A stretch of 64,000 nt of DNA from the NCBI GenBank assembly GCA_964445765.1, contig CAYULD010000003.1, positions 76,571-140,570 on the forward strand, read 5' to 3'. Shown piece by piece: positions 22,756 through 47,149 of this stretch. The position numbers were made by a program, and so were the translations under genes. The stretch is from an uncultured Rickettsiales bacterium. Its GTDB lineage: Bacteria > Pseudomonadota > Alphaproteobacteria > Rickettsiales > UBA8987. How positions within the stretch are numbered: position 1 is the first letter of the stretch; every line of letters begins with the position of its first letter. A model generated the notes under the pieces. It was not told the origin of the DNA. It made no database searches and worked only from the letters and a program-made list of their open reading frames with translations.

Positions 22756-22901
22756 ATAGTTTCTTAATTTATATATGTTGCATTCTATGCACAGTTAAAA
22801 GTTTTGAAAGGGGTTTTTATTAATAAATAGTAATTTTATAGTTGTTATATAAGAAAAGTTAATACTTAATCTAATGTAATATTTTGAATATGGAGAAAAA
22901 A

Positions 22902-23774: not shown

Positions 23775-23785
23775 AAAACATTGTG

Positions 23786-24664: not shown

Positions 24665-24691
24665 TTAGGTTAATCAAACCTTTGGAGTATA

Positions 24692-32803: not shown

Positions 32804-32851
32804 ACAAAAGTTTTAGTGTAAATAGGTTTTATCAATAATATTTTATTTTCA

Positions 32852-33790
32852 ATGGAAAAACCAATCTGGCAGTGGGTGATATTTGGGGTGATAGTTCTAA
32901 CCCTATTAATATTAGATTTAGGAGTTTTTAATAAAAAAGATAAAGAATTTTCTTTTAAGGAAAGTGCTATTTTTAGTGCTTTTTATGTTATTATAGCCTG
33001 TTTGTTTGGTTTATATATTTACTATAATCTTGGTTATGAAAGCTCAGCGTTATATTTTACAGGCTATATAATTGAAAAAACCTTATCTTTGGATAATGTT
33101 TTTGTAATTTCTATAATTTTTACATATTTTGCAATACCTAGAATTTATCAGCATAGAGTTTTATTTTGGGGTATAGTTGGCGTTCTAATTTTAAGGGCAA
33201 TTTTAATTGCAGTTGGTGCAACTCTCATTTCTCATTTTCATTGGGTATTATATATATTTGCGGTTTTCTTGATTTTTACAGGGTTCAAAATGTTTTTTGG
33301 AAATGATGAAGAAATTGATCTTGAAAAGAATAAAATTTTAATTTTTTTGAGAAAAAACTTCAAGATTACTAAAGAAATTCAAGGTAATAAATTTTTTGTA
33401 AGAATTTTAGAAAATGGCAAAAAAGCTACTTATATGACACCACTTTTTGTTGCCTTATTAGTAGTTGAATTTGTAGATTTAGTTTTTGCTCTTGATAGCA
33501 TTCCTGCGATTTTTGCTATAACCACTGACCCATATATAGTTTATACTAGCAATATTTTTGCGGTGCTTGGCTTAAGGGCTTTATATTTTTTCTTAGCGGA
33601 AATGGTTCATAGATTTATTTACTTAAAACCTGCACTTGCCATAGTTTTAATATTTATTGGCTCTAAAATTTTTATAAGTGATTTCATTTTAGGCGGAGAA
33701 AAATTCCCAATAAATATTTCAATCTTAATTACAACCGGCATTATTAGTGCAGGGGTTATTTATTCATTAATCAAAACTAAAAATAAGTAA
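32852..33790 (+). CDS. TerC-family integral membrane protein
   Basis: EKTLSLDNVFVI and FALDSIPAIFAIT motifs, 312 aa. Confidence 0.85.
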   Translation: MEKPIWQWVIFGVIVLTLLILDLGVFNKKDKEFSFKESAIFSAFYVIIACLFGLYIYYNLGYESSALYFTGYIIEKTLSLDNVFVISIIFTYFAIPRIYQHRVLFWGIVGVLILRAILIAVGATLISHFHWVLYIFAVFLIFTGFKMFFGNDEEIDLEKNKILIFLRKNFKITKEIQGNKFFVRILENGKKATYMTPLFVALLVVEFVDLVFALDSIPAIFAITTDPYIVYTSNIFAVLGLRALYFFLAEMVHRFIYLKPALAIVLIFIGSKIFISDFILGGEKFPINISILITTGIISAGVIYSLIKTKNK

Positions 33791-33856
33791 AATCTCTTGA
33801 AGGGTTAAAAGTTTAATGTATAAGCCGAAAATAACTTAATTAATTTTAATATTTAT

Positions 33857-34279
33857 ATGGCTATTGAAAGAACATTATCAATTCTAAAACCTGATGCAAC
33901 TAGAAGAAATTTAACTGGCAGAATTAATGCTAGATTTGAAGAAAGTGGTCTTAGAATCGTTGCACAAAGAAGGGTTAGGCTTAGCAGACTACAAGCTAGA
34001 AATTTCTATATAATGCATAAAGATAGGCCTTTTTATGATGAGCTTGTTGAGTTTATGGTTTCTGAGCCAGTTGTTATTCAAGTTTTAGAAGGTGAAAATG
34101 CAGTTGCTAGAAATCGTGAAATTATGGGTGCAACAGACCCAAGCAAAGCGGCTGCTGGCACAATTAGAAAAGACTTTGCACTTAGTATCGGTGAAAATTC
34201 AGTTCATGGCTCTGATAGCTTAGAATCTGCGGAAAGAGAAATCAGATTCTTTTTTGCTGATATTGATATTGTTGGATAA
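33857..34279 (+). CDS. ndk: Nucleoside diphosphate kinase
   Basis: [19 protein letters not shown], 140 aa. Confidence 0.95.
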
Positions 34280-34284
34280 TTTTT

Positions 34285-34851
34285 GTGCAAGGGAATAAGA
34301 TACAGCTTCGTAAAAAATATCGTGAAGCTAGAAATTTATTACCTGAAAACAAAAGAAAATTATTAAGTAGAGAAATTTGTAGAAATTTTTTTGCAAATAT
34401 TAAAGTTCCAAGAAATTCTGTTATAGCTGGCTATATTGCCTCTGAAAGTGAGGTTGATATTTCATTGCTTCTTGATTTATTTGCTGAAGAAAACCACAAA
34501 ATTTGTATGCCTTGCGTTTTAGCAGAAAATAAACCTATGGTTTTTAGGGAATATAAAAAGGGCGTAAATCTTATAAAAAATAAGAAATATAATTTTCTTG
34601 AATTACCTGAAAATCTTCCAGAAATACAGCCTTATTTGATAATAACTCCTTTAGTTGCATTTGATACTGCAAAAAATAGAATAGGGCAAGGTGGTGGCTT
34701 TTATGATAGAACTTTTGAGATGCTACAAGATTATGCAGAGTTCTTAGCGATAGGGGTTGCTTTTGAATGTCAAAAAGCACCTTTCATAATTTCCGAAAAT
34801 AAAGATTATAAACTAGATGCAATAGTTACAGAAAAACAAGTTTATATTTAA
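34285..34851 (+). CDS. 5-formyltetrahydrofolate cyclo-ligase
   Basis: LRKKYREARNLL start, GQGGGFYDR motif, GTG start. Confidence 0.82.
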   Translation: MQGNKIQLRKKYREARNLLPENKRKLLSREICRNFFANIKVPRNSVIAGYIASESEVDISLLLDLFAEENHKICMPCVLAENKPMVFREYKKGVNLIKNKKYNFLELPENLPEIQPYLIITPLVAFDTAKNRIGQGGGFYDRTFEMLQDYAEFLAIGVAFECQKAPFIISENKDYKLDAIVTEKQVYI

Positions 34852-34869
34852 CATTGTCTATAGCTACAA

Positions 34870-35304
34870 ATGAAAGCCTATAACACATTAATTAAATTAT
34901 CTAAGCAACAGCTTGATGAAAAAAGGCGAGAGCTAACAAATTTACTAGATAAAAAAGAAGAATATTTACTAAAAATTAAAAATTTAGAAAATGAATTAAG
35001 GGAAGAATTTAAGAGGATTTCAAACAACAGCAATCTAGATATTGAAATTAAAAGCCAATTTATGAATTATGCAAATGGGGTATTAAATAAGCAAAATGAT
35101 TTAATGAATTTGGCTGAAAAATTAAACCCTGAAATTAACAAACTTAATGATGAAATATTTATTATTTTTGGTGAAATGAAAAAAATTGAAATTTTTAGAG
35201 ATATTAAAATTGAAGAAGAAGAGAAACTATTTCAGAAAAAAAACCAACTTGAATTAGATGAAGTTGCGATAAATAATTTTATTCGTAACCAGAAATTTTT
35301 TTAA
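34870..35304 (+). CDS. Coiled-coil protein, possibly flagellar export protein FliJ
   Basis: 144 aa, all-helical Lys/Glu-rich, with a C-terminal ...E.K....E.LELDE.A pattern reminiscent of FliJ. Not adjacent to fliI. Confidence 0.4.
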   Translation: MKAYNTLIKLSKQQLDEKRRELTNLLDKKEEYLLKIKNLENELREEFKRISNNSNLDIEIKSQFMNYANGVLNKQNDLMNLAEKLNPEINKLNDEIFIIFGEMKKIEIFRDIKIEEEEKLFQKKNQLELDEVAINNFIRNQKFF

Positions 35305-36238
35305 CAGAATGAACTCTATAGGGCGTGGTATCAGCACTTTTGTAATATGTTCTCATTAAAAGTTCCGCAATAAAACCAGTTGTGATAAGTTGCACGCCAG
35401 CAATTAATAGCAATATACCTATAAAGAATAATGGCCTACCACCAATATCTTCACCTAAAATTTTTAAGATAAGCAAATAAAATTCTATCAAAGAGCCAAA
35501 TCCTAGAGAAACCAAGCCTAATGAGCCAAAGAGATGCATTGGTTTTTGGCGGTATTTTATAAAAAAGCCCATCAATAATAAATCACTAGCAACCCTTAAT
35601 GTTCTTGATAAACCATATTTAGAAACGCCAAATTTTCTTGGGTGGTGTTTTACATCAACTTGTGCAATTTTAGCACCTTTTAGGCTTGCGAGAATTGGAA
35701 TGAATCTGTGTAATTCGCCATATAAATCTAAAGATTTCGCAAGCTCTGTTTTCATAACTTTTAGAGTACAACCATAGTCAGAAACTTCAATTTTGCTAAT
35801 GCCATAAATTAATCTATTAGCAATTTTACTTGGTATTTTTCTCAAAATAAGGCCATCTTTCCTTTTTGCTCTTTTGCCAGCAACCATATCCAAATCTTCA
35901 TTCTTAAGTTTTTCTAGCATTAATGGAATATCTGTGGGATCATTTTGTAAATCCCCATCAAGAAAGGCTAAATACTCACCTTCTGCGTATTCTATGCCTG
36001 CTGCCATTGCTGAGGTCTGTCCAAAATTTCTAGTAAATTTAACTAATTTTATGTTACCTTCTTTAAGGTTGTTGATTTTTTCAATGGAAGAATCTTGGGA
36101 GCCATCATCAACAAAAACTATCTCATATTTAAGATTTTTTATGGCGTTTTTAATTGCTTCAACCAGCGGAAATAAATTATCTTCCTCATTATAAATTGGT
36201 ATCACAATTGAAAGATCTATTTTAGAAGAAAAACTCAT
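35279..36238 (-). CDS. GT2 polyprenyl-phosphate glycosyltransferase (GtrB/ArnC/DPM1-like)
   Basis: LSIVIPIYNEEDNL, VDDGSQD, DGDLQNDP, two C-terminal TM helices. Confidence 0.85.
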   Translation of the reverse strand: MSFSSKIDLSIVIPIYNEEDNLFPLVEAIKNAIKNLKYEIVFVDDGSQDSSIEKINNLKEGNIKLVKFTRNFGQTSAMAAGIEYAEGEYLAFLDGDLQNDPTDIPLMLEKLKNEDLDMVAGKRAKRKDGLILRKIPSKIANRLIYGISKIEVSDYGCTLKVMKTELAKSLDLYGELHRFIPILASLKGAKIAQVDVKHHPRKFGVSKYGLSRTLRVASDLLLMGFFIKYRQKPMHLFGSLGLVSLGFGSLIEFYLLILKILGEDIGGRPLFFIGILLLIAGVQLITTGFIAELLMRTYYKSADTTPYRVHSVKKISGYE

Positions 36239-36240
36239 TT

Positions 36241-38253
36241 TTAGAATTTATATTTAACCTGAAGTAAAGCCATTCTTGGAATTTCTGAGGCAGTTGAATA
36301 AATGATTTCATCAAATTCTTGATGGTTATCATCAAATAAATTTTGCCCAGTAAGTGAAATTTCAATATCCTCAGTTGGTGAATACATAAAGCTAGTATCA
36401 AACCTTGTAAAGCTCTCAACAAATCTTTTTCCACCCGTTCCTGTAAAATAGATAATGTCATCATAAAAATATAATGCATTATTCATTGAAAGTTTATCGT
36501 TAAAATTATAATTTGAAATTAAATTATACTGAAAAGTTGGGCTTCTATTTTCATCTCTAGCAAGCCCTGTATCTGTGCTTCCTATGTGGGTATGAAAATT
36601 TTGCTTTATGAAAGAATAACCAAATTTCATATCCCAATTTTGTTTAATTCCCCAAATTGCGAAGGAATCAAAACCATAAGTTTCGCCAAAACCATTATTA
36701 TTTACTCTTAAAATCTGAGTAGGGCCAGAAAACCTATTAAAATCTATGGTTCTAAGGTCGCTATAATCATTGTAAAAGAAACTAGTTTCAAAATATACAT
36801 CCTTTCTAACATTACTTCTAAAGCCCATTTCATAAGCGTTTAGATTTTCTGATTCGTAGTTAGAGTTTCCTTCAATAAATGCAGCACCATATGGTAAGCC
36901 AGCAGGAGCAAATAATTGAAAGCTATTTTCCCCTCTAGATGGTAATCTTACAGCTCTAGAAATTGCCCCCCAAACTGTATGATCATCATTAATATGATAT
37001 AATAGCCTTGCATTTGGTTGAATTTCAAAATTAGTGAAGTCATTATAATCAAATTTTGAACCTAGAATTAAAAATAACTTTTCATCTATGAGTGCAATTT
37101 TATCTTGAAAAAATGTATTAAAAATATTGAAGTTAGTGCTTTCAGGTCTGTAAGCTAAGTGTGCAGTATTACCTAAATTGTCATTTATTACTCTATTGCC
37201 AATGCCTGAGGTAATATTATGCCTGCCAACATTATATTCAAACTGCCAATCAAAATCATAAGTTATTATTTCTTGCTCTAGAATTGGAAGAATATCTCTA
37301 TAAGCATAGTCAACATAGGTTTGAAGTGTTGATTGAACTTCGCCAATTGGAATATTCCATTTAAGCATTACATTACCACCTGAAAAATCTTCCCCCAAAT
37401 CCACATTTGAAATGAAGGGTGATGATGAGGTTGGCATTTGCAAATCAAGGCTTCTTCTACCTGTATAAAAATCCCCTTGTAATGAGTATTTACCATATAC
37501 AGATTCCATTCTAAAACCTGCTTGGCTTTTATTCCAATTATCATCATTGCTTCTTTCAACGCCAACTCTTTTGAAATCTGAAAATTCTTTATGGTTGGCA
37601 TAAATTCTGTAATAATCAAAATCTTCTGTTCTGAATGAATTTCTAGTTTCTATAGCATTTTCGTGAGTTCCTATGGTCGTTTTAGCGTGAGATGTTTGGG
37701 TTTTTCTAGCCTCTTTAGTAATAATATTAATTACACCATTAACTGCATTTGGCCCCCATAATGTTCCACCCGGCCCCCTTATTACTTCTATTCTATCTAT
37801 ATCATCTATTGGATAGTCTTGAATATCCCAATAAACCCCAGAAAATAAAGGGGTATATAAAGTTCTGCCATCAATTAATACTAATAATTTGTTTGAAAAC
37901 TGCCTATTAAAACCCCTTATTGAAATAGCCCAACTATTTGCGGTTGTTCTTGAAACTTGAACACCCGGAACCATTCTAAGAGCTTCTGGAATTGATGTGA
38001 TGCCAGCTTTTTTAATATCTTTTGATTTTAATACATAAACTGAGCCTGCAACTTCTTTAACTTTTTCTGGGCGTTTAGAGCTTGAATAAATATCTAGTTG
38101 ATCATATTCTTCTGCTGACATATTAAGATATTTATCAATCTCTTCTTGCGTTACTGAGGAGAAATCAAAGTTTTCCTCATTACCGTATGCATAAGCTATG
38201 GTAGCTAATTGCATAATCAAAGCTAAAGTGATAATTGCAAATTTATTTTTCAT
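36241..38253 (-). CDS. TonB-dependent outer membrane receptor
   Basis: Start chosen at MKNKFAIITLALIMQLATIAYA (signal peptide). Plug motifs IEVIRGPGGTLWGPNAVNGVINIITK. Terminal ...VKYKF. Confidence 0.88.
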   Translation of the reverse strand: MKNKFAIITLALIMQLATIAYAYGNEENFDFSSVTQEEIDKYLNMSAEEYDQLDIYSSSKRPEKVKEVAGSVYVLKSKDIKKAGITSIPEALRMVPGVQVSRTTANSWAISIRGFNRQFSNKLLVLIDGRTLYTPLFSGVYWDIQDYPIDDIDRIEVIRGPGGTLWGPNAVNGVINIITKEARKTQTSHAKTTIGTHENAIETRNSFRTEDFDYYRIYANHKEFSDFKRVGVERSNDDNWNKSQAGFRMESVYGKYSLQGDFYTGRRSLDLQMPTSSSPFISNVDLGEDFSGGNVMLKWNIPIGEVQSTLQTYVDYAYRDILPILEQEIITYDFDWQFEYNVGRHNITSGIGNRVINDNLGNTAHLAYRPESTNFNIFNTFFQDKIALIDEKLFLILGSKFDYNDFTNFEIQPNARLLYHINDDHTVWGAISRAVRLPSRGENSFQLFAPAGLPYGAAFIEGNSNYESENLNAYEMGFRSNVRKDVYFETSFFYNDYSDLRTIDFNRFSGPTQILRVNNNGFGETYGFDSFAIWGIKQNWDMKFGYSFIKQNFHTHIGSTDTGLARDENRSPTFQYNLISNYNFNDKLSMNNALYFYDDIIYFTGTGGKRFVESFTRFDTSFMYSPTEDIEISLTGQNLFDDNHQEFDEIIYSTASEIPRMALLQVKYKF

Positions 38254-38902
38254 ATAAAACCTCTGGGTTTTCAAAACAAATAACATAAACTTCAATGCCA
38301 GCCTTGGCATAATATTCAACAGCACCTAAATATTTAGTTTCAACAAAATTAAAAAAATTAGAAGCAAAACTCTTAAATAATCTTACCCTAGCTTTTGTTG
38401 AGCTTATAAACAAATATTTTACTTTTAACTCTTTAGTTAATTCATAAAATTTCTTAAATGCAGCCATATAGTGATTTGGGTTTTTCCTGTAATCAGTGTG
38501 CATTGCATATCTAGAAACTTCACAATATTTATTATTTTGTAAATCCAAATCTGGAAAAACATTTTGATATGTAAATCCAAGCATTTCATTGGGTAATGAA
38601 AATTTTGCTTCTTTATTATTTGTTGTTACTCTAACCCCTGATATAAGTTTATTATTGTGAGTAACCCTTAAAAAATGACTATAAAAATCTCTTGGGTCAA
38701 TTTTTTTATATGCATCTGGTAAATTAAGCTCATTTTCATAATATTCGTCTATTAGCCCAGTATATTCCTTCAAAAATTTTGGATCTCTTGACCACTCATA
38801 TTCTATCTCGTCTGAGTTTTTTGTAAGTTCATTTGCAAAAATAGTTGTTGCTGAAAATTTTTCTGCAGAATTTTTAGTTACAGCTGTAAATTTCATATTC
38901 AT
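38243..38902 (-). CDS. GNAT-fold N-acyltransferase of the N-acyl amino acid synthase / OlsB / LuxI-like superfamily
   Basis: 219 aa. The central YCEVSRYAMHTDYR resembles the E.SR(F/L)A...(Y)R core of Acetyltransf_5-type acyl-ACP dependent N-acyltransferases. Confidence 0.5.
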   Translation of the reverse strand: MNMKFTAVTKNSAEKFSATTIFANELTKNSDEIEYEWSRDPKFLKEYTGLIDEYYENELNLPDAYKKIDPRDFYSHFLRVTHNNKLISGVRVTTNNKEAKFSLPNEMLGFTYQNVFPDLDLQNNKYCEVSRYAMHTDYRKNPNHYMAAFKKFYELTKELKVKYLFISSTKARVRLFKSFASNFFNFVETKYLGAVEYYAKAGIEVYVICFENPEVLYEK

Positions 38903-39036
38903 AAATCGAAGATATTAAAAAGGTTGATAAGTAGTATAAAAATTAGATAAAATTTTAGATAATTTTGAAGAAATACAAGATTTGTATTAATTTTGCAACT
39001 GCTTTAGTAACTTAAAGTTGAGTTTTTTGGGGATAT

Positions 39037-41709
39037 TCAACTGATTTTAGTTTTAAGATTATATATTTCTTCTAGTGCTTGCTTTGGCGATAAATTATCT
39101 GGTGAGAGATTTTTAATATATTCAATTAAAATTTTTTCATTTTCCCGTAGGGAATTTTTATTATTTTTTTGCAAAGTATTTATTGAAAACAAGGGTAAAT
39201 CCTCACTAAAAATTTTTGCTGGGTTATGCTGGTTATTTTTTTCTAAAATCTCAAGAATTTGATTTGCCCTATTGATAACTTTATTTGGAATACCCGCTAA
39301 TTTTGCAACATTTATTCCATATGATTTTCCGGCAATTCCGTTAATTATTTTATGAGAAAAAATTATCTCATTATTCCATTCTTTAGTTTCTGTTGTGTGC
39401 AGTGATATTTTATTTAGTTTTTCATTAAGCTCTGTTAATTCATGATAGTGTGTTGCAAAAATTGTTCTGCAACCGATAAAATTATGAATATATTCAAGCA
39501 CTGACCAAGCTATTGAAATACCATCATAGGTGGAAGTGCCCCTGCCTATTTCATCTAGAATTACTAGAGATTTACTGGTGGCATTATTTAGAATTGTTGC
39601 GGTTTCAACCATTTCCACCATAAAAGTTGAATGACCTTTTGCAAGATTGTCAGAAGCCCCAACCCTGCTAAAAATTTTATCTACAACCCCTATTTTTGCA
39701 TAAGAGGCCGGAATAAAACTTCCAATTTGAGCCATAATTGCAATAACCGCATTTTGCCTTAAGAAGGTAGATTTTCCGCTCATATTAGGCCCTGTAATTA
39801 GCCAAATTTTATCTTCTTCACTAAGCGAAATATCATTAGCAATAAATTTAATATTAGATAATTCTTTGAGATTATTTTCAATAACTATGTGTCTTGCGTC
39901 TTTCAAAATAAAATTTTCACTTTCATCAATTTCTGGCTTTGTAAGATTATGATTTTCAGCAAACTCAGCTAGTGAGGAATAAAAATCAATTAAAGCTATT
40001 GAATTTGCATTTTGCAGTATGTTATCAGTTGCTAATTTTATTTTTTCACAAATTTCTCTAAAGATTTCAATTTCTAGTGCAATAGCGTATGATTGAGAAT
40101 TAACAATTTTATTCTCAATTTCCCTTAATTCTTGAGTGGTATAACGAATATTATTCGCCAGAGTTTGCCTGTGAATAAAATAATTTGGGATTTTTTCAAT
40201 TTGTGTGGGTGTAACTTCTAAAAAATAGCCCAAAATATTATTATGCTTAATTTTTAGATTGCTAATTCCACTTTCATTGCGATATTTTTCAATCAAATTA
40301 TTTAATATGCTAACTGAATTTTCTTTAGTTTTGCGATAATCATCAAGTTTTGCATTATAATTTTCTTTAATAAAGCCACCTTCTGAAATGCTTGCTGGGG
40401 CTTGGTTTATAATCGCTTCATCTAGTAAGAATAAAATTTCTTGATTATCATATTTTTGAAATAGAGATTTTATATTACTTGGAATTTCAGAATGATAAGA
40501 ATTTATTAAATAGCAAATATCTAAAAATGCCTTAAGGCTATGTTTTAACGCTTCTAAATCTCTAGGGTTTGAGCGGTTAAGATGTATGCGAGAAATTATT
40601 CTTTCAATGTCAGAAATTTGTTTCAGGCAAGAAATAATATTTTTTCTAAAATCATTATTTAACAATAAAAATTCTACATTGTTAAGTCTAGTTTCAATTT
40701 CATTTTTATTTATTAATGGTTTGGAAAGTGCTTTCTGTAAAAATCTTGCACCATTTGCGGTTTTAGAAAAATTCATTACGCTAAATAGAGAATTTTTACT
40801 GCCCCCGTTTTGAGATTTGAATATTTCTAAATTGCTAAAACTTGCAAAATCAATTTCCATAAAGTCAGAATTGTTTGATTTTTTAGGAAATAAAATATGC
40901 GGTTTTGCATTTGGAAATGTTGAGCTTATATAATCCAGCAAAACGCTACAAGATGCAATTTCTTGGTTTTCAAGGTTAAGAGATTCTAAAGTTTTGATAT
41001 TGTAAAAATTTTTCAGTTTTTCTTTGCCTCTTTTTTCTGAAAATTGCGATTTATCAAAATTGCTAATTATTTTGCGATAATTATTAAAAATGGCGGAAAA
41101 AGACTTATCTGAAAATAATTCATCAGATATTAAAATTTCTTTAGGGTTTAATTTTTCAAGCTCAGAAAATAATTTTTCTTCACTGGTTTTCGTAACAAAA
41201 ATTTCACCCGTAGAAACATCACAATAGGCTAAATAAAAAACCTGCTCATTTTTATTAATGCAAACCAAATAATTGGCAAAGTAGCCTTCAAGCAAGTTTT
41301 CTTCAGTAATGGTTGCAGGTGTTACAATTCTTGTAACTTCCCTTGTTACAACTGCTTTATAGCCCCTTTTTTTCTTAGCTTCTTCTGGGGTTTCAGTTTG
41401 TTCACAAATTGCAACTTTATAACCTTTCTTTATAAGCCTTCCCAAATAGCCCTCGTAAGAATGATGCGGAACTCCACACATAGGGGTTTCAACCCCATTA
41501 TGCTCCCCCCTTTTGGTTAATACAATTTCAAGCTCACTTGAGGCAATAATGGCATCTTCAAAAAAGAGTTCATAAAAATCACCCATTCTAAAAAACAGCA
41601 GAATATCTTTATAATTTTTCTTAATTTCTAGATATTGTTGCATCATTGGGGTGATGCTAATTTGCTCTTCAGATGATGGTTTTTCTGTTTTTTTATCTAC
41701 CAAAGACAT
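39037..41709 (-). CDS. mutS: DNA mismatch repair protein MutS
   Basis: TPMMQQYLEIK, GPNMSGKSTFLRQ, DEIGRGTSTYDG. Start moved to MSLVDKK (ATG at 41709). Confidence 0.94.
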   Translation of the reverse strand: MSLVDKKTEKPSSEEQISITPMMQQYLEIKKNYKDILLFFRMGDFYELFFEDAIIASSELEIVLTKRGEHNGVETPMCGVPHHSYEGYLGRLIKKGYKVAICEQTETPEEAKKKRGYKAVVTREVTRIVTPATITEENLLEGYFANYLVCINKNEQVFYLAYCDVSTGEIFVTKTSEEKLFSELEKLNPKEILISDELFSDKSFSAIFNNYRKIISNFDKSQFSEKRGKEKLKNFYNIKTLESLNLENQEIASCSVLLDYISSTFPNAKPHILFPKKSNNSDFMEIDFASFSNLEIFKSQNGGSKNSLFSVMNFSKTANGARFLQKALSKPLINKNEIETRLNNVEFLLLNNDFRKNIISCLKQISDIERIISRIHLNRSNPRDLEALKHSLKAFLDICYLINSYHSEIPSNIKSLFQKYDNQEILFLLDEAIINQAPASISEGGFIKENYNAKLDDYRKTKENSVSILNNLIEKYRNESGISNLKIKHNNILGYFLEVTPTQIEKIPNYFIHRQTLANNIRYTTQELREIENKIVNSQSYAIALEIEIFREICEKIKLATDNILQNANSIALIDFYSSLAEFAENHNLTKPEIDESENFILKDARHIVIENNLKELSNIKFIANDISLSEEDKIWLITGPNMSGKSTFLRQNAVIAIMAQIGSFIPASYAKIGVVDKIFSRVGASDNLAKGHSTFMVEMVETATILNNATSKSLVILDEIGRGTSTYDGISIAWSVLEYIHNFIGCRTIFATHYHELTELNEKLNKISLHTTETKEWNNEIIFSHKIINGIAGKSYGINVAKLAGIPNKVINRANQILEILEKNNQHNPAKIFSEDLPLFSINTLQKNNKNSLRENEKILIEYIKNLSPDNLSPKQALEEIYNLKTKIS

Positions 41710-41796
41710 TGATGAAATAAATATTTTACAATTAAAAGAATATATCAAAAATTTGATTTCTCAATGTTAGAAAATTTCAAATAAGTTAAAAAATCA

Positions 41797-42630
41797 TTAT
41801 CTCTGATTAGTGCTTTCTTGTATGGTATCTGTTTTTTGAAGGTGCTCTATCATATGTCTTAGCCTTTCTCCAGCTATTGGGTGTGCTCTAGGCTGTTTGG
41901 GGCTTAAAAGATTAGATATTAAACCCTCAGGCTTTGGTAGTCTTAATTTAGGGGTTAAATAAAATTCTGCACAGGCTTTAACAGCTTCTGTGAGGTTTGT
42001 TATTTTAGGTTTTGCCTCACCTAAAACTTCATGAAAATGAATATTTATAAGTGCATTAATGTCATTAAAATTTTGAGTTGCAAAGCTATCGCACTCAAGC
42101 TCTTTTTTACGCCCCCTACTTGAAGTAACATAAATACTAGGTATACTTATTCTTAAAGAATCATTGTGAACAATACTTAGAACTGATGTAGCAAATGCTG
42201 TAATGGCAACCTCATTTGTTAAGAAGTTGCCACCAGCCAATTTAGACGCAATTGCACAGCTTGCTGTAATCAAAATAGGTGAATATCTAAAGAGTGTATT
42301 TGTTCTAGGCGAGAGAATTTTTTCTAAAAAAGATTTGCCGTCCAAGCTGTGTCTTAATTCGTGTTTTAATATATATTCACATTCCCCTTCATCTAACCGT
42401 GATGCAAAATTTGCAGAAAGATTTATTGTGTTAGAATCAGGTGAGTAACTTGCACCTCCTCCATAATTTAAAATTCTTAATTGGGGTGGTTGCCAGTCTT
42501 TTCTTCTATTTGGAATTGTATGTAAATTCTTCAAGGTATACTTAATTGCATTTTCATATGCTCTAAAAGCACTTGGAAAACTGCGAGACAAGTTTGCCGT
42601 TTCTGATATATATATATATATATATATCAT
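41797..42630 (-). CDS. HExxH metalloprotease-like protein (M48-like: HELRH ... ELECD ... HPIAGERL)
   Basis: 277 aa ORF starting with an ATG placed immediately 5' of an (AT)11 tract (MIYIYIYISETANL...). Two hydrophobic segments follow the HExxH motif. Confidence 0.6.
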   Translation of the reverse strand: MIYIYIYISETANLSRSFPSAFRAYENAIKYTLKNLHTIPNRRKDWQPPQLRILNYGGGASYSPDSNTINLSANFASRLDEGECEYILKHELRHSLDGKSFLEKILSPRTNTLFRYSPILITASCAIASKLAGGNFLTNEVAITAFATSVLSIVHNDSLRISIPSIYVTSSRGRKKELECDSFATQNFNDINALINIHFHEVLGEAKPKITNLTEAVKACAEFYLTPKLRLPKPEGLISNLLSPKQPRAHPIAGERLRHMIEHLQKTDTIQESTNQR

Positions 42631-42865
42631 TTTCAGGCATTTTTAAGGCACTTGGTCCGGAGATTATAAATTTATTTTTATTAAAATCTAATGTAGGTAA
42701 TCCCTTATATTTAAGGTCTACTTCAATTTCTGGAAATATCCAGCCATTCGGATTAAGAGGGGAGTCTTTGAGGGGTTCAAATTCATTTTTTGCTCTAGTG
42801 TAGGCATTATAAACTTTTGGAAAGTTTGATTTTAATTCGTTTAGATTTGCTTCTTCTAAAGCCAT
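42563..42865 (-). CDS. 100-aa ORF paralogous to the N-terminal module of the downstream HExxH protein; a frame-shifted upstream part or a separate small gene
   Basis: It reads through the same (AT)11 tract (..ENDIYIYIYI) in another frame and stops 22 codons later. Collinear similarity to the next ORF (ANL..SFP...AY..A....W..P....Y.G....N.I.LS). Confidence 0.45.
   Translation of the reverse strand: MALEEANLNELKSNFPKVYNAYTRAKNEFEPLKDSPLNPNGWIFPEIEVDLKYKGLPTLDFNKNKFIISGPSALKMPENDIYIYIYIRNGKLVSQFSKCF
42606..42627. repeat. (AT)11 dinucleotide microsatellite inside coding sequence
   Basis: Counted directly: g-atatatatatatatatatatat-c. Confidence 0.95.
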
Positions 42866-43037
42866 ATGATTTTTTTATTTCATTTGTATCATAAAATAAT
42901 TAAAAAATCGTTAAACAAGATGTGTGTTTTTTATTTTTTTACAGAATTTTTCTTAAAAAAACACTATAATTAACAAAATTTGTTGATAACATTTCTTTAA
43001 CCAGTCTAAATTGCTTCAAATAATCAAAGAAATATTT

Positions 43038-44162
43038 ATGAAAAATGCTGTAATTGTAGATTTTTTGAGAAGCCCATTTACTAGGGCAACTAAAGGCGAA
43101 TTTGCAGAAATCAGACCAGATGATTTAGCTGGAAGCGTTATAAAAGATATAGTTTCACGAAATAAATTAAAGGTTGAAGATATTGAAGATCTTAAAATGG
43201 GTTGTGCATTTCCTGAGGGGGAGCAAGGCTTGAATATAGGTCGTCAAGTTTGTTTTATAGCTGGGCTACCGATTTCTGTTGCGGGTGTTACAACAAATCG
43301 TTTTTGTGGCTCATCAATGCAAACTATTCACGATGCAGTTGGCTCAATTATGGCAGGTGCTGGTGAGTTATATATTTGTGCTGGCGTTGAATCAATGTCT
43401 AGAATACCAATGGGGGGCTTAAACCCCGGGCCTAACCCTGCTTTATATGAAAGCTATCCAGAAACTTATGACGGAATGGGCATTACCGCAGAAAGGCTTG
43501 CGGTTAAATATAAAATCTCTCGCAGGGAGCAAGATGAATTTGCTACTTTAAGCCATAAAAAAGCTGCAAAAGCTCAAGATGAGGGCAAGTTTGTTCAAGA
43601 AATTTCTCAATTTGGCGGAATTTCAAAAGATGGTTGCATTAGAAGGGATACTTCGCCTGAAACTCTATCTACTCTAAAGCCTGCTTTTGATGCGAAGGGA
43701 ACGGTTACCGCTGGAACTTCTTCGCCATTAACTGATGGTGTGGCGGCAGTTATAGTTGCAGAAGAAGAATATGCTCGGAAAAATAATCTTAAAATTTTAG
43801 CAAGGGTGAAATCAATAGCGGTTTCTGGTTGTGCACCTGAAATAATGGGTATAGGGCCAGTTCCTGCAACTAAGAAGGCTCTGCAAAGGGCTGGTTTGGA
43901 GCTTAAAGATATTGATATTATTGAGCTTAATGAAGCCTTTGCTGCACAATCTATTTCAGTCATTCGTGAGCTTGGTGCGGATATGAGCAAAATAAATCTT
44001 GATGGCGGGGCGATTGCATTAGGGCATCCGCTAGGTGCATCTGGTGCTAGAATTACCGGCAAAGCGGCATCTTTGCTTCAGCGTGAGGGTAAAAAATATG
44101 CCCTTGCAACGATGTGTATTGGTGGCGGGCAAGGTATCGCAACAATTTTGGAAAGGGTCTAA
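43038..44162 (+). CDS. fadA: Acetyl-CoA C-acyltransferase (3-ketoacyl-CoA thiolase)
   Basis: NRFCGSSMQ active-site Cys, NEAFAAQ, CIGGGQG. Start moved to MKNAVIVDF. Confidence 0.92.
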   Translation: MKNAVIVDFLRSPFTRATKGEFAEIRPDDLAGSVIKDIVSRNKLKVEDIEDLKMGCAFPEGEQGLNIGRQVCFIAGLPISVAGVTTNRFCGSSMQTIHDAVGSIMAGAGELYICAGVESMSRIPMGGLNPGPNPALYESYPETYDGMGITAERLAVKYKISRREQDEFATLSHKKAAKAQDEGKFVQEISQFGGISKDGCIRRDTSPETLSTLKPAFDAKGTVTAGTSSPLTDGVAAVIVAEEEYARKNNLKILARVKSIAVSGCAPEIMGIGPVPATKKALQRAGLELKDIDIIELNEAFAAQSISVIRELGADMSKINLDGGAIALGHPLGASGARITGKAASLLQREGKKYALATMCIGGGQGIATILERV

Positions 44163-44246
44163 TTTAAGCAATTATTAGTGCAAAGTGTAATTAATCTTTG
44201 TGCTTATTAATAACATGCACTTGAGATAGTAACTTGCACTGTAACT

Positions 44247-44669
44247 ATGGTTGAGCAACAATATAAACAGCAGGAAAATTTGGATAGTAAAATCCAAAAA
44301 ATTCTTGGTGTTGAAGAGGCAAAAAAAATTCACGGTATTTTAGAGGAGATTAAAGAAGCATTGGGAAAAGATTTTGATGTGCTTGTTGAGTTACTAGGGC
44401 AAGCAGAAGTTGAAAGTTTGGAGAAAGATACTGAAAAATTAATTGCTTTTATAGTTAGTAGCTTAAAAATTGATAAAAAATATTTGCTGAAACCTAAGCT
44501 CAAAAAGGCTTTATTGAAATATGTAAAATATATTAATGAGCTTACAGAGGGTATGAAAAAAAATTCTTTGCTTAATAAGTTAAGATCTTTTGGGCAAGAT
44601 ATTATGGAGATGATAAACCGCCAAGAAGTTGCTATAGGTAAAGGGCAAGATATTATGGAGATGAGGTAG
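44247..44669 (+). CDS. Hypothetical helical protein inserted in the beta-oxidation operon
   Basis: 140 aa, Lys/Glu/Leu-rich. The C-terminus carries a duplicated GQDIMEM encoded by a 22-nt direct repeat. Confidence 0.45.
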   Translation: MVEQQYKQQENLDSKIQKILGVEEAKKIHGILEEIKEALGKDFDVLVELLGQAEVESLEKDTEKLIAFIVSSLKIDKKYLLKPKLKKALLKYVKYINELTEGMKKNSLLNKLRSFGQDIMEMINRQEVAIGKGQDIMEMR

Positions 44670-44675
44670 TTTTTA

Positions 44676-44715
44676 CCCCTGCCCTCTCCCTACTTGTAGG
44701 GAGAGGGAATAGAGG
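44676..44715. repeat. Palindromic repeat, family B (perfect 11-bp stem ccctctcccta/tagggagaggg)
   Basis: Stem arms at 44682-44692 and 44697-44707 with loop cttg. Confidence 0.8.
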
Positions 44716-44752
44716 ATGGATATAATTATAAAAATAAAAAAAGGTCAAAATT

Positions 44753-47149
44753 ATGACAATAAATAAAGTAGCAGTGATTGGTTCTGGTGTAATGGGAAGC
44801 GGTATAGCTGCGCATATTGCGAATAGTAACACTAATGTTTTGCTCTTGGATATTCTGCCACAAGGGCAGGCTAATCGTAATGCGTTGGTTGATGGTGCGC
44901 TTGAAAAAATGCAGAAATCTGATCCTGCAATGCTTACGCACAAATCTAAGCTGAAATATATTCAAGTTGGCAATTTAGAAGATGACCTTGCGAAGCTGAA
45001 AGATTGCGATTGGATTATTGAAGTTGTGCTTGAAGATATAAAAGTTAAGCAAGAAACTTACAAAAAAATTAATCAGAATCGTAAAAAAGGATCAATTGTT
45101 TCTTCTAACACTTCAACAATTCCCCTAGAAAAATTGGTTGAAGGTTTGGGTTCTGAATTTGAGCAAGATTTTCTTATCACTCATTTCTTTAATCCGCCAC
45201 GCTATATGAAATTGCTGGAGCTTGTTTCTGGCAAGAATACTCGTGCGGATGCAGTGAAAGAAATTGAAGGGTTCTGTGATGTTAAGCTCGGCAAAGGTGT
45301 AGTGAAATGCTTTGATAGGCCGGGTTTTATTGCTAATCGTATTGGCACATTCTGGCTAATGCGCGCGTTAAATGAAGTGGTTGATACGGGTGCATCTATT
45401 GAGCTTGCAGATGTTATGATGGGCAAGCCGATTGGCGTTCCAAAAACAGGTGTGTTCGGTTTAATGGATTTAATTGGTATTGATTTGCTGCCGCTTATTG
45501 CTCGCTCATTTGCACATAATTTGCCTAAAGAAGATGAGTTCAATAAAATTTTCAATCTGCCTGCGACTATTCAGAAAATGATTGCTGATGGTTATACTGG
45601 CAGAAAGGGCAAGGGTGGTTTTTATCGTATTAATCCTGAATCAAAAGAGAAGAAGGAAAAGCAAGCGATAGACCTAAAAACTGGTGAATATAGAAAAGCA
45701 TCTAAGCCACGCCCTGCAAGTGCGGAAGCTGGCAGAAAATCTTTGGCGAATATTTTTGAAACTAAAGATGAAGGTTCAAAATATTTATGGCCAGTGTTGC
45801 GTGATACATTAATATATACGGCAAATTTAGTTGGTGAAATTGCATCTGACATCAAGCAGATAGATGAGGCGATGAAGCTAGGTTATAATTGGAAGATGGG
45901 GCCGTTTGAGATAATTGATAAAATGGCGATTGATGGTAAATCTGGTGCGAAATATTTTTCTGAAAAATTGAAATCAGAAGGTAAGCAAGTTCCAAAAATT
46001 ATTGAGCAAATCGGTGATGGCTCTTTCTATAAAGTTGAAGGCGGTGCTAAGAAATTCTATGCCAATAATAATTACAATATAATTCCATTTGATAGTAATA
46101 CTTTCACATTAGATGATATAAAAATCAACGCGAAACCAGTTCTTAAAAATGGCTCTGCCAGCGTGTGGGATATTGGTGATGGCGTGCTTGCGTTTGAGTT
46201 TACTTCAAAAATGAATTCGCTTGATCCAACAACTTTGGAATTAATAAATACGACAGTTGAAGAAGTTAAGAAGAATCACAAAGGGCTTGTGATGTATAAT
46301 GATTCTGACAATTTCTGCGTTGGTGCAAATATTGGCGTGCTTTTGTTTGCGGCTAATACTGCCGCTTGGAAGGAGATTGATGGAATCATCAAACAAGGGC
46401 AAGATGCATATATGAATTTGAAATATGCGCCGTTCCCAGTAATTGGTGCACCTTCAGGTATGGCTTTGGGTGGCGGTTGTGAGATGATGCTTCATTGTGA
46501 TGCAGTGGTTTCTCATGTGGAGTTATATTCGGGGCTTGTTGAAGTTGGTGTTGGTTTAGTGCCGGGTTGGGGTGGATGTAAAGAATTTGTTTATCGCCAA
46601 CTTAAAAAGCGTGCTGAAGATGATAGATGGGCTGCAAAATTTGGTGGTTGGTTTAGTTGGCTATCACCAATTAAAACGCTGAACACAATGCCGCCGATAA
46701 TTGAAACAATGACAAATATCTCAACGGCGAAAGTTTCAAAATCTGCTGAAGAAGCTAAGAGAATGCTTATCTTAAATGAAAAATCTGAAATTGTGATGAA
46801 TCGCAAACGCCTACTTTCACAAGCTAAGAAAAAGGCGTTAGAGCTTTCAGTAAATTATAAAGCCCCAGAAACTTATTCAGTTAATTTGCCGGGTAAAACG
46901 GCTCGCACAGCTATTGAAATGAAGCTTCGTGAGATGGAGAAAACCAATCAGGTTACGCCATATGATATGATAGTTTCTCGTGCGGTTGCTTATGTAATTA
47001 CGGGTGGTGATACATCAATCACTAAGCAAATTACAGAGCAACAATTGCTAGATTTAGAGCGTGAAGCTTTCATGGATCTTATCAAGAAAGCCGGAACGCT
47101 AGACCGTATCGAGCATATGCTTGATACTGGAAAACCATTGAGGAATTAG
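44753..47149 (+). CDS. Bifunctional 3-hydroxyacyl-CoA dehydrogenase / enoyl-CoA hydratase (dehydrogenase domain first, FadN-like order)
   Basis: VAVIGSGVMGSGIA Rossmann motif at the N-terminus, crotonase-like C-terminal half (GGGCEM), 798 aa. Confidence 0.88.
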   Translation: MTINKVAVIGSGVMGSGIAAHIANSNTNVLLLDILPQGQANRNALVDGALEKMQKSDPAMLTHKSKLKYIQVGNLEDDLAKLKDCDWIIEVVLEDIKVKQETYKKINQNRKKGSIVSSNTSTIPLEKLVEGLGSEFEQDFLITHFFNPPRYMKLLELVSGKNTRADAVKEIEGFCDVKLGKGVVKCFDRPGFIANRIGTFWLMRALNEVVDTGASIELADVMMGKPIGVPKTGVFGLMDLIGIDLLPLIARSFAHNLPKEDEFNKIFNLPATIQKMIADGYTGRKGKGGFYRINPESKEKKEKQAIDLKTGEYRKASKPRPASAEAGRKSLANIFETKDEGSKYLWPVLRDTLIYTANLVGEIASDIKQIDEAMKLGYNWKMGPFEIIDKMAIDGKSGAKYFSEKLKSEGKQVPKIIEQIGDGSFYKVEGGAKKFYANNNYNIIPFDSNTFTLDDIKINAKPVLKNGSASVWDIGDGVLAFEFTSKMNSLDPTTLELINTTVEEVKKNHKGLVMYNDSDNFCVGANIGVLLFAANTAAWKEIDGIIKQGQDAYMNLKYAPFPVIGAPSGMALGGGCEMMLHCDAVVSHVELYSGLVEVGVGLVPGWGGCKEFVYRQLKKRAEDDRWAAKFGGWFSWLSPIKTLNTMPPIIETMTNISTAKVSKSAEEAKRMLILNEKSEIVMNRKRLLSQAKKKALELSVNYKAPETYSVNLPGKTARTAIEMKLREMEKTNQVTPYDMIVSRAVAYVITGGDTSITKQITEQQLLDLEREAFMDLIKKAGTLDRIEHMLDTGKPLRN

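What the first reader, a model, noticed from the sequence alone, without database searches (positions are those of the whole stretch)
41797..42865. (AT)11 microsatellite sets the reading frame of an M48-like HExxH protease: candidate phase-variable switch
- A perfect (AT)11 tract at 42606-42627 lies in coding sequence on the minus strand and is read as Ile-Tyr repeats in two frames.
- The upstream 100-aa ORF runs through it (..PENDIYIYIYI) and stops 22 codons later.
- The downstream 277-aa ORF begins with an ATG immediately 5' of the tract (MIYIYIYISETANL..). It carries HELRH, two hydrophobic helices, ELECD and HPIAGERL, which together form an M48 (HtpX/Ste24-like) pattern.
- I checked the frames by hand. 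(AT)12 or (AT)9 would fuse the two ORFs into one protein of about 355 aa, whereas (AT)11 gives the split state.
- The upstream ORF is also weakly but collinearly similar to the N-terminal ~75 aa of the downstream ORF. The fused form would therefore have a duplicated N-terminal module joined by an (IY)n linker.
- Dinucleotide tracts of this length are classic slipped-strand contingency loci, and also classic sites of sequencing or assembly error.
Basis: partly seen in the sequence, partly recalled or inferred. Interest (0 to 1): 0.7.

Follow-up and report, generated by a model that had tools for sequence, protein, structure and literature searches.

The report
AT-repeat frameshift splitting a metalloprotease gene
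A run of eleven AT pairs has knocked a rare, fast-evolving zinc-protease-like gene out of frame in a hot-spring Rickettsiales-like bacterium; adding or losing repeat units would restore it, so it may be a reversible on/off switch, but no variation in repeat number has been seen.

Summary
A perfect (AT)11 tract at 42606-42627 is the only dinucleotide run of 5 or more units in the 64 kb window. It lies between a 100-aa and a 277-aa minus-strand ORF, and repeat numbers of 6, 9, 12 or 15 fuse them.

Only two relatives exist in about 7 billion searched proteins. Both are single intact ORFs (362 and 353 aa) that read through the junction, so the window holds one gene, frameshifted.

The tract grew from an old Ile-Tyr-coding stretch: no tract in the distant relative, an interrupted (AT)5 in the close one, and (AT)11 here.

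Two metagenome samples both assemble (AT)11, so it is the dominant allele and not an assembly slip. Minority repeat lengths cannot be seen in contigs.

The gene shows no other decay. It has no extra stop codons, all motif residues are kept, and its lineage is not accelerated (33 vs 38 unique substitutions). It evolves 2-14 times faster than each of its neighbours, but dN/dS of 0.31 is still under 1.

I read it as a slippage-prone on/off locus caught in the off state. That reading is plausible but not shown to vary or to be adaptive. A recent plain pseudogene is the main rival.

"M48-like" is only partly supported. The protein is an orphan HExxH zincin, internally duplicated and closest to minigluzincin/M48/M56 folds, and no family threshold is met.

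The parts
41797..42865 (-). The whole ancestral gene: one ~354-356-aa orphan HExxH zincin, currently frameshifted.
   Evidence: Orthologues P0002 (362 aa) and P0003 (353 aa) align end to end with the (AT)12 fusion at 52% and 43% identity. Synteny with L001 holds upstream of mutS and through nine further genes.
42606..42627 (.). Perfect (AT)11 microsatellite, the site of the frameshift. It encodes (Ile-Tyr)n in both relevant frames.
   Evidence: It is identical in Logan contigs from two samples. The orthologous codons are GAT ATA TAT ATC TAT CTA TCA in L001 and GCC ATT TAC GAA TAT ATA AAA in L003.
42563..42865 (-). Upstream ORF of 100 aa: the N-terminal module (residues 1-87, a catalytically dead copy of the zincin N-subdomain) plus 13 out-of-frame codons and a stop.
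   Evidence: It is 47% and 44% identical to the N-termini of P0002 and P0003, with dN/dS 0.30. Duplication z = 5.8-8.9. The secondary-structure unit helix, three strands, two helices occurs twice in the model.
41797..42630 (-). Downstream ORF of 277 aa: (IY)n, then the catalytic zincin module, a hydrophobic hairpin and a C-terminal helical part.
   Evidence: The chance of 277 open codons at this base composition is about 2e-10. The gene caller's 264-aa version is P0001.
42628..42630 (-). ATG abutting the tract, in frame with the catalytic module only when n = 11 (or 8, 14). It is specific to the window lineage.
   Evidence: It is created by AAT GAT (Asn-Asp). L001 has GAA GAT and L003 has AAA GCC at this place. 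A TAA lies five codons upstream in that frame. This genome hardly uses Shine-Dalgarno motifs (3 of 49 ORFs, background 4%), so the missing motif is uninformative.
42349..42363 (-). HELRH, the zinc-binding and catalytic HExxH motif.
   Evidence: H, E and H are invariant in all three orthologues. The motif lies in a modelled helix with pLDDT 72-87. Sub-threshold zincin Pfam matches centre on it.
42169..42276 (-). Two adjacent hydrophobic segments between HExxH and ELECD.
   Evidence: Kyte-Doolittle 19-residue maxima are 1.55 (window), 1.34 (P0002) and 1.01 (P0003), which is marginal for membrane helices. This is the fastest-evolving part of the gene, with dN/dS 0.67.
42088..42102 (-). ELECD, a candidate third zinc ligand (Glu) in a gluzincin-type motif within SSRGRKKELECDSFA.
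   Evidence: E256, E258, C259, D260 and F262 (fusion numbering) are invariant in all three orthologues. The structural role could not be tested because pLDDT is below 50 here.

Best explanation
One gene for a lineage-restricted, fast-evolving zinc metallopeptidase-like protein has been put out of frame by slipped-strand change in an internal (AT)n tract.

The protein consists of a dead copy of the zincin N-subdomain, an (Ile-Tyr)n helix, a catalytic HExxH module, a hydrophobic hairpin, an ELECD motif and a helical tail.

The tract arose from an ancestral Ile-Tyr-coding stretch (IYEYIK, then IYIYLS). That stretch lost its interruptions to become the equivalent of an in-frame (AT)9, and then changed length to (AT)11.

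In the sampled hot-spring population the dominant allele is out of frame, so the full-length protein is off.

Eleven perfect dinucleotide units are far above the length at which slippage becomes frequent. Revertants such as (AT)12 or (AT)9 should therefore arise at a high rate, and the locus should behave as a mutational on/off switch.

Shown:
- single-gene ancestry;
- the frame logic;
- the origin of the tract;
- the dominant off state in two samples;
- the absence of any further decay.

Inferred:
- that the tract actually varies in this population;
- that switching matters to the organism;
- that the protein is an active protease.
For: - Two intact single-ORF orthologues span the junction.
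- The gene sits in the same place, upstream of mutS, in the close relative.
- A graded series of tract states runs across the three orthologues.
- Codon choice alone would yield a perfect tract from IYIYIYI with P of about 0.004, because ATA makes up only 27% of Ile codons. The tract is therefore a slippage product.
- It is the only long dinucleotide run in 64 kb, and none is expected by chance.
- (AT)11 appears in contigs from two samples at 10.6x and 11.4x depth.
- Both halves remain open, all motif residues are retained, and 277 open codons have a chance probability of about 2e-10.
- dN/dS is 0.31 overall and 0.30 in the N-module, which is below neutrality.
- The window lineage is not accelerated: 33 vs 38 lineage-specific substitutions, p = 0.64.
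- The tract lies in the 5' quarter of the gene, and both wrong frames stop within 13 or 24 codons. This is the layout of known intragenic dinucleotide switches such as Mycoplasma mycoides mmyCImod, where (AG)12 is off and (AG)10 is on (PMC3498834), and H. pylori oipA with its CT repeats (PMC10564699).
- Indel variability of simple repeats rises steeply with length across prokaryotes (PMC3315296).
Against: - No tract-length heterogeneity has been seen. Both samples show the same length, and contigs hide minority alleles.
- The orthologues lack a long tract, so there is no sign of a conserved switch.
- No other candidate simple-repeat locus lies in the window.
- The adjacent mutS is intact and conserved, with dN/dS 0.13. 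Mismatch repair should damp dinucleotide slippage.
- The gene is under weaker constraint than each of its nine neighbours: dN 0.46 vs 0.03-0.21. That also fits a dispensable gene drifting into loss.
- Protease activity and any surface or host-facing role are unproven.
Confidence: 0.5

Rival explanations
1. Plain, recent pseudogene. A weakly constrained accessory gene let its AT tract grow by drift, slippage then frameshifted it, and the off allele has fixed. Reversion may occur physically but has no biological role, and the gene is on its way out.
For: - The gene evolves 2-14 times faster at non-synonymous sites than each of its nine syntenic neighbours, with dN/dS 0.31 vs 0.04-0.15.
- The orthologues have no long tract.
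- The same off length dominates in both samples.
- There are no other simple-repeat loci in 64 kb.
- The family is tiny and patchy, with three members and a different genomic location in L003. That is typical of dispensable genes.
Against: - There is no second lesion in 1 kb of 32% GC sequence, where stops arise easily (30 and 37 stops in the two non-coding frames).
- All conserved motif residues are kept.
- There is no lineage-specific acceleration.
- The surrounding region is densely packed with intact genes, so pseudogenes are not common here.
- All of these points only show that any inactivation is very recent.
Confidence: 0.3
2. Functional split or isoform switch. In the (AT)11 state the catalytic module is translated on its own from the lineage-specific ATG at 42630 (M-IYIYIYI-SET...), and the 100-aa N-module is made separately. 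Repeat number modulo 3 would then choose between a long form, a short form and no product.
For: - The break falls exactly at the boundary between the two duplicated modules.
- The ATG abuts the tract, is in frame only for n = 8, 11 or 14, and is absent from both orthologues.
- The genome does not rely on Shine-Dalgarno motifs, so internal initiation on an A-rich leader is not excluded.
- The 277-aa product contains the complete zincin module.
Against: - A start codon within the 5 open codons before the tract has a chance probability of roughly 0.1-0.25 at this composition. This is my own estimate from the base frequencies.
- There is no expression data of any kind.
- Both orthologues keep the two modules fused.
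- The upstream ORF overlaps the downstream one by 68 nt, which is poor geometry for translational coupling.
Confidence: 0.1
3. Sequencing or assembly artefact. The true tract is in frame, (AT)12 or (AT)9, and the gene is simply intact.
For: Dinucleotide tracts are prone to PCR stutter, and depth is only about 11x.
Against: The same length appears in the source assembly and in independently built Logan contigs from two different samples. Neither sample yields an alternative contig. Stutter normally produces minority products, not a shifted consensus.
Confidence: 0.05
4. Recoding. The full-length protein is made from (AT)11 by ribosomal +1 frameshifting or by transcriptional slippage on the tract.
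For: Gene function is known to be rescued by polymerase slippage on long homopolymer tracts in AT-rich endosymbionts (from my own memory, not checked here).
Against: - ATA/TAT codons offer no re-pairing for a +1 shift.
- I know of no precedent for productive transcriptional slippage on dinucleotide tracts.
- Rfam finds no element in the window.
- Both orthologues encode the junction in frame without recoding.
Confidence: 0.03

Closest known systems
Intragenic dinucleotide-repeat phase variation, e.g. Mycoplasma mycoides mmyCImod (AG)12 off / (AG)10 on (PMC3498834) and Helicobacter pylori oipA (CT)n (PMC10564699)
   Same: - A perfect dinucleotide tract of about 10-12 units in the 5' part of the coding sequence.
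- Unit changes toggle the frame.
- Wrong frames stop shortly after the tract.
- The rest of the gene is intact.
   Different: - The repeat is AT, which is self-complementary and encodes Ile-Tyr, whereas the known cases use AG or CT.
- No length variants have been observed.
- Orthologues do not share a long tract, whereas several Mycoplasma mod genes do.
- The host is an environmental hot-spring Rickettsiales-like MAG with an intact mutS, not a mismatch-repair-poor animal pathogen.
- The gene product is not a known surface or restriction-modification protein.
Minigluzincins (selecase, projannalysin, proabylysin; Lopez-Pelegrin et al. 2013, as cited in PMC4559962)
   Same: - These are the best fold matches to the confident part of the model: 4qhi E = 0.003, TM about 0.5 on the target, about 22% identity.
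- A compact N-subdomain of helix, three strands and the HExxH helix.
   Different: - Those proteins are about 105-110 aa, soluble and archaeal.
- This protein is about 355 aa, with an extra dead N-module, a hydrophobic hairpin and a long C-terminal part.
- There is no significant sequence match.
Peptidase families M48 (HtpX/Ste24/BepA) and M56 (BlaR1/MecR1)
   Same: - HExxH, then hydrophobic segments, then a conserved acidic Glu-x-x-x-Asp-like motif (ELECD).
- A sub-threshold PF05569 hit.
- BlaR1, HtpX, 3c37 and BepA appear among the weak fold hits.
   Different: - No PF01435 (M48) hit at all.
- The M56 hit scores 17.9 bits against a cut-off of 31, in one of three orthologues.
- There are no N-terminal membrane helices.
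- Hydrophobicity is marginal.
- Fold-match E-values are 0.4-6.
Slippage-generated split genes and pseudogenes in reduced alphaproteobacterial genomes
   Same: A single frameshift splits a gene into two called ORFs in an AT-rich Rickettsiales-like genome.
   Different: The lesion lies in a long perfect microsatellite, so it is readily reversible. There is no other decay or rate acceleration, and the neighbourhood is not pseudogene-rich.

Membership tests
SSR-driven phase-variable (contingency) locus | A perfect simple repeat, long enough to be hypermutable, inside or just upstream of a gene. | tested here: met
   (AT)11 is perfect, lies at nt 239-260 of a 1071-nt gene and is unique in 64 kb.
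SSR-driven phase-variable (contingency) locus | Gain or loss of repeat units switches between a full-length and a truncated product. | tested here: met
   n = 6, 9, 12 and 15 give 352-358 aa. Other n give 98-112 aa.
SSR-driven phase-variable (contingency) locus | Repeat-number polymorphism within a population or between close strains. | tested here: inconclusive
   Two samples both give (AT)11, but only assembled contigs were available and these drop rare variants. No conspecific sequence was found in the SRA index, JGI metagenomes or GTDB genomes.
SSR-driven phase-variable (contingency) locus | The coding sequence is otherwise intact and under selection. | tested here: met
   No extra stops, motifs retained, dN/dS 0.31, no lineage acceleration.
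SSR-driven phase-variable (contingency) locus | The repeat is conserved, with varying length, in orthologues; other such loci occur in the genome. | tested here: not met
   L001 has (AT)5 followed by interruptions and L003 has no tract. No other dinucleotide run of 5 or more units, and no A/T homopolymer run of 9 or more, occurs in the window. Only 64 kb of the genome could be examined.
Peptidase M48 (HtpX/Ste24) | Match to the family profile (PF01435) at the gathering score. | tested here: not met
   No PF01435 hit at E <= 10 for any of the three orthologues. NCBIfam gives none.
Peptidase M48 (HtpX/Ste24) | An HExxH zinc site plus a downstream Glu as third ligand. | tested here: inconclusive
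   HELRH/HEIRH and E-[LI]-E-C-D are invariant. The geometry could not be tested because pLDDT is below 50 around ELECD.
Peptidase M48 (HtpX/Ste24) | Integral membrane topology, with membrane helices flanking the catalytic site. | tested here: inconclusive
   Only two central hydrophobic segments exist, with KD19 maxima of 1.55, 1.34 and 1.01, at or below the usual threshold of about 1.6. There are none at the N-terminus.
Peptidase M56 (BlaR1) | Match to PF05569 at the gathering score. | tested here: not met
   17.9 bits against a cut-off of 31, covering 61 residues around HExxH, in the window protein only.
Zincin metallopeptidase fold (minigluzincin-like) | N-subdomain with a mixed sheet plus an active-site helix carrying HExxH; structural similarity to solved zincins. 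| tested here: inconclusive
   All of the top 21 PDB hits are zincins. The best is selecase 4qhi, with E = 0.003, probability 1.0 and target TM 0.49, but no hit reaches E <= 0.001. Overall model pLDDT is 53, rising to 72-87 in this subdomain.
Decaying pseudogene | Several disabling lesions and/or a neutral, accelerated substitution rate. | tested here: not met
   A single frameshift only. 33 vs 38 lineage-specific changes, p = 0.64. dN/dS 0.31.

The most novel reading that the evidence does not exclude
The tract is a three-state translational selector in an environmental (hot-spring) Rickettsiales-like bacterium. Repeat number modulo 3 would choose between three outcomes:
- n = 0 mod 3: the full two-module protein;
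- n = 2 mod 3 (the observed state): a catalytic-module-only protein started at the lineage-specific ATG that abuts the tract, plus a free N-module;
- n = 1 mod 3: no product.

In-frame steps of three units would also lengthen the (Ile-Tyr)n helix that links a dead zincin half-domain to the live one. This would be an (AT)n coding-region contingency locus outside the usual animal pathogens, acting on an uncharacterised protease family.
Probability: 0.1. Interest if true: 0.6.

Novelty: new member of a known kind. Interest (0 to 1): 0.35.

Why it matters
If tract length does vary in the population, this would extend repeat-driven on/off switching to an uncultured, environmental Rickettsiales-like lineage. 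It would also extend it to an AT dinucleotide inside a coding region. Both are rarely reported, since most known cases are G/C homopolymers, tetranucleotides, or AG/CT repeats in animal pathogens.

It would also mark an uncharacterised, very rare and fast-evolving zincin family as likely to matter in interactions with a host or competitor.

If the tract does not vary, the locus is still a clean snapshot of how a coding Ile-Tyr stretch turns into a microsatellite and kills its gene. Annotators should also merge the two called ORFs (100 aa and 264 aa) into one frameshifted gene.

Tried and rejected
- Sequence-family assignment. Pfam gave only sub-threshold zincin hits in one orthologue. NCBIfam, PADLOC, PHROGs and PDB sequence and profile searches gave nothing. 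I therefore did not file the protein under M48 or M56, or as a defence or phage protein.
- More relatives. The word-indexed search of 5.8 billion proteins found one. The exhaustive HMMER search of 1.84 billion representatives found one more, plus a spurious low-complexity hit, P0005. GTDB genome scans re-found only the P0003 genome. JGI metagenome scans by protein pattern, and by a DNA pattern anchored on the tract flanks with a free tract length, found nothing.
- Population heterogeneity. The SRA index finds only two runs holding the sequence. For these 2020 runs only Logan contigs can be laid, not raw reads, so minority tract lengths are invisible.
- Structure. Two AlphaFold2 runs with 2- and 3-sequence alignments gave pLDDT 50 and 53. 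Only the N-subdomains are usable, and the C-terminal 180 residues, including ELECD, are not.
- Expression signals. No terminator-like site was found and only weak promoter-like sites. Shine-Dalgarno analysis is uninformative because the genome hardly uses the motif.
- Structured RNA or recoding. Rfam and tRNA scans of the window are empty.
- Mobile-element signature. No flanking repeats were found around the oddly placed L003 orthologue.
- dN/dS. dS is near saturation (1.2-1.6), so ratios are used only comparatively.
Full report
**1. The observation**

- The minus strand of 41797-42865 reads as described.
- TRF finds a perfect (AT)11 at 42606-42627.
- A regex scan shows it is the only dinucleotide run of 5 or more units in the 64 kb window (32% GC). 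There are no A/T homopolymers of 9 or more.
- Even a 7-unit AT run never occurs in 100 dinucleotide-preserving shuffles.
- Two minus-strand ORFs flank or overlap the tract. One runs 42865..42563 (100 aa) and the other 42630..41797 (277 aa).
- I rebuilt the tract with 6-15 units and translated from the upstream ATG.
  - n = 6, 9, 12 and 15 give one ORF of 352-358 aa.
  - n = 8, 11 and 14 stop 13 codons past the tract.
  - n = 7, 10 and 13 stop 24 codons past it.
The phrase 'stops 22 codons later' is correct only if counted from the start of the tract.

**2. One gene or two?**

- The (AT)12 fusion product was searched against 5.8 billion proteins. The search returned only the window's own 264-aa call (P0001) and one relative, P0002.
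- P0002 is 362 aa, 50% identical and covers 95% of the fusion. It comes from a MAG labelled Rickettsiales bacterium.
- An exhaustive HMMER search of 1.84 billion cluster representatives added a third member, P0003. It is 353 aa with E = 8e-87, from a MAG labelled Alphaproteobacteria bacterium. That search also returned the window's own 100-aa piece (P0004) and a spurious low-complexity hit.
- Both relatives are single intact ORFs that align end to end with the fusion.
- They read through the junction as EEDIYIYLSNT (P0002) and EKAIYEYIKNT (P0003). The window reads ENDIYIYIYISET.
- In P0002's contig the gene lies directly upstream of mutS. It is followed by the same further genes as in the window: a FeeM-like gene, a TonB-dependent receptor, a GT2 glycosyltransferase, fliJ, 5-FTHF cyclo-ligase, ndk, terC and RNase H.
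- The window therefore holds one ancestral gene that is frameshifted inside the tract.

**3. Origin of the tract**

Codon-level comparison:

| Source | Junction codons | Peptide |
|---|---|---|
| L003 | GCC ATT TAC GAA TAT ATA AAA | AIYEYIK |
| L001 | GAT ATA TAT ATC TAT CTA TCA | DIYIYLS |
| Window | GAT followed by AT repeats up to 11 units | frame lost |

- The L001 sequence equals an (AT)9 tract with two A-to-C interruptions. It is exactly collinear with the in-frame (AT)9 version of the window.
- ATA is the minority Ile codon in this genome (27%). Codon choice would give a perfect tract from IYIYIYI with P of about 0.004.
- The tract is therefore a product of purification and slippage, not of codon bias.

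**4. Is (AT)11 real?**

- A Logan contig from SRR12997672 is 100% identical to window 40219-45591, including the tract.
- The SRA word index finds two runs, from two samples of one hot-spring metagenome study, that hold the region completely. No run holds it partially.
- Laying their contigs gives one contig per run at depth 10.6 and 11.4. There are no differences and no alternative contig.
- (AT)11 is therefore the dominant allele in both samples, and a one-off assembly error is unlikely.
- Raw reads could not be inspected for these runs, so minority tract lengths, which are the decisive evidence for switching, remain unknown.
- Scans of JGI metagenomes found no conspecific sequence. I used both a protein pattern and a DNA pattern anchored on the flanks with a free tract length.

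**5. State of the gene**

- Apart from the frameshift there is no lesion.
  - The downstream frame stays open for 277 codons. At this composition the chance of that is about 2e-10, and the two non-coding frames carry 30 and 37 stops.
  - All residues invariant among the orthologues are kept, including H169, E170, H173, E256, E258, C259 and D260.
- Against L001, the nine syntenic neighbours are 75-96% identical at the protein level. This gene is only 51% identical.
- Nei-Gojobori estimates:

| Genes | dN | dS | dN/dS |
|---|---|---|---|
| This gene | 0.46 | 1.49 | 0.31 |
| Nine neighbours | 0.03-0.21 | 0.57-2.7 | 0.04-0.15 |

- dS is near saturation, so the ratios are used only for comparison.
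- The N-module has dN/dS 0.30, so it has been under selection as coding sequence.
- A relative-rate test with P0003 as outgroup gives 33 window-specific and 38 P0002-specific substitutions (p = 0.64). There is no excess in either half.
- The window copy has therefore not evolved as a pseudogene for any measurable time. Either the frameshift is very recent or the gene is still maintained.

**6. What the protein is**

- Sequence profiles give no family assignment.
  - Pfam returns only sub-threshold zincin hits centred on HELRH: M56 at 17.9 bits against a cut-off of 31, plus SprT-like, PhageMetallopep and DUF6782. These appear for the window protein only, and there is no M48 hit.
  - NCBIfam, PDB sequence and profile searches, PADLOC and PHROGs give nothing.
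- AlphaFold2 with the very shallow alignments gives usable confidence only for the N-terminal half.
- In that half the unit 'helix, three strands, short helix, long helix' occurs twice, at residues 16-95 and 98-176.
- HELRH sits in the long helix of the second copy. The (IY)n stretch sits in the equivalent helix of the first copy.
- This agrees with the sequence-level duplication (BLASTP E = 0.001; z = 5.8-8.9 in four comparisons).
- The N-module is thus a dead copy of the zincin N-subdomain.
- Foldseek against the PDB returns only weak hits, with a best E of 0.003. Every one of the top 21 is a zincin:
  - selecase, jannalysin and abylysin (minigluzincins);
  - IrrE;
  - BlaR1 (M56);
  - HtpX, 3c37 and BepA (M48);
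  - Wss1.
- The two hydrophobic stretches reach Kyte-Doolittle 19-mer maxima of only 1.55, 1.34 and 1.01 in the three orthologues. Membrane insertion is uncertain.
- Conclusion: this is an orphan, internally duplicated HExxH zincin with a gluzincin-like ELECD motif. It is nearest to the minigluzincin/M48/M56 group, and membership of M48 is not established.

**7. Mechanism and rivals**

- The layout matches known intragenic dinucleotide switches.
  - The perfect tract lies in the 5' quarter of the gene.
  - Both wrong frames terminate early.
  - The rest of the gene is intact.
  - Examples are mmyCImod, where (AG)12 is off and (AG)10 is on (PMC3498834), and oipA with CT repeats (PMC10564699).
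- Repeat indel variability rises steeply with length across prokaryotes, and long dimeric repeats are generally avoided in coding regions (PMC3315296).
- I therefore favour a slippage-prone on/off locus observed in the off state (confidence 0.5).
- The main rival is a recent plain pseudogene of a weakly constrained accessory gene (0.3). In its favour:
  - the high dN;
  - the lack of a long tract in the orthologues;
  - identical length in both samples;
  - no other repeat loci in 64 kb;
  - an intact mutS next door.
- A further possibility (0.1) is that the split state is itself functional.
  - The break falls at the module boundary.
  - A lineage-specific ATG (AAT GAT here, GAA GAT in L001) abuts the tract in the frame that is productive only at n = 8, 11 or 14.
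  - The genome hardly uses Shine-Dalgarno motifs: 3 of 49 ORFs, against a background of 4%.
- Artefact (0.05) and recoding (0.03) are unlikely.

**8. Context**

- No terminator-like site separates the gene from mutS, and weak promoter-like sites precede mutS. I make no claim of a functional link.
- The window has no tRNA or Rfam match.
- In the P0003 genome the orthologue sits on the opposite strand between secY and rplO, without flanking repeats. This suggests an accessory gene that has moved.

**9. Verdict**

Single-gene ancestry, the frame logic and the duplication are right. The switch is plausible but not demonstrated. The M48 label is too specific.
- In kind, this is a new member of a known class, simple-repeat frameshift switching, acting on an uncharacterised protein family.
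- Interest is moderate to low (0.35) until read-level tract counts are made.

Noticed in passing
window 53148-53233 (+), inside ORF 52676-53761: A locally GC-rich, in-frame imperfect palindrome of about 86 nt. It consists of (GGGATTG)x4, a 12-nt A-rich spacer and a C-rich arm. The arms are 37 nt and 70% complementary, and the inner 18 nt are 83% complementary. Single-stranded DNA folds at -16.7 kcal/mol, z = -2.2. It occurs once in the window. It sits within what looks by eye like a glycosyltransferase and encodes ...GIGDWGLGIRKNKFNYQPLSPHPQAPT.... From memory it resembles the Rickettsia palindromic elements that insert in frame into genes. I did not test this.
   Followed up: partly
window 22884-25546 (+): Three tandem paralogues of 296, 293 and 284 aa, 63-68% identical. 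They have type-IV-pilin-like N-termini (K-G-FTLVELAIVLVIVGLL) and Asp/Gly-rich repeats (DGADGDGDGD) that TRF flagged as short tandem repeats. This is a possible pilin gene array. No profile search was run.
   Followed up: partly
window 32369-42865 vs L001 319-11222: The zincin gene is the outlier of its syntenic block: 51% protein identity and dN 0.46, against 75-96% and dN 0.03-0.21 for the nine neighbours. Its hydrophobic segment has dN/dS 0.67. Either relaxed or diversifying selection could explain this, and the two were not distinguished.
   Followed up: partly
L003 10001-11062 (GCA_031426355.1, JANPLD010000118.1): The most distant orthologue (P0003) lies on the opposite strand between secY and rplO, interrupting the otherwise standard ribosomal-protein/secY/adk cluster. 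No flanking direct or inverted repeats were found. This is an unusual insertion site, suggesting the gene has moved.
   Followed up: partly
whole window: Shine-Dalgarno core motifs precede only 3 of 49 long ORFs, which equals the random background of about 4%. This organism apparently initiates translation without a Shine-Dalgarno motif. The window also has no tRNA or Rfam hit in 64 kb.
   Followed up: no
window 44247-44669 (+): A 140-aa ORF with no Pfam hit on record lies between the thiolase and the fadB-like gene. It ends in a direct peptide repeat...FGQDIMEMINRQEVAIGKGQDIMEMR.
   Followed up: no
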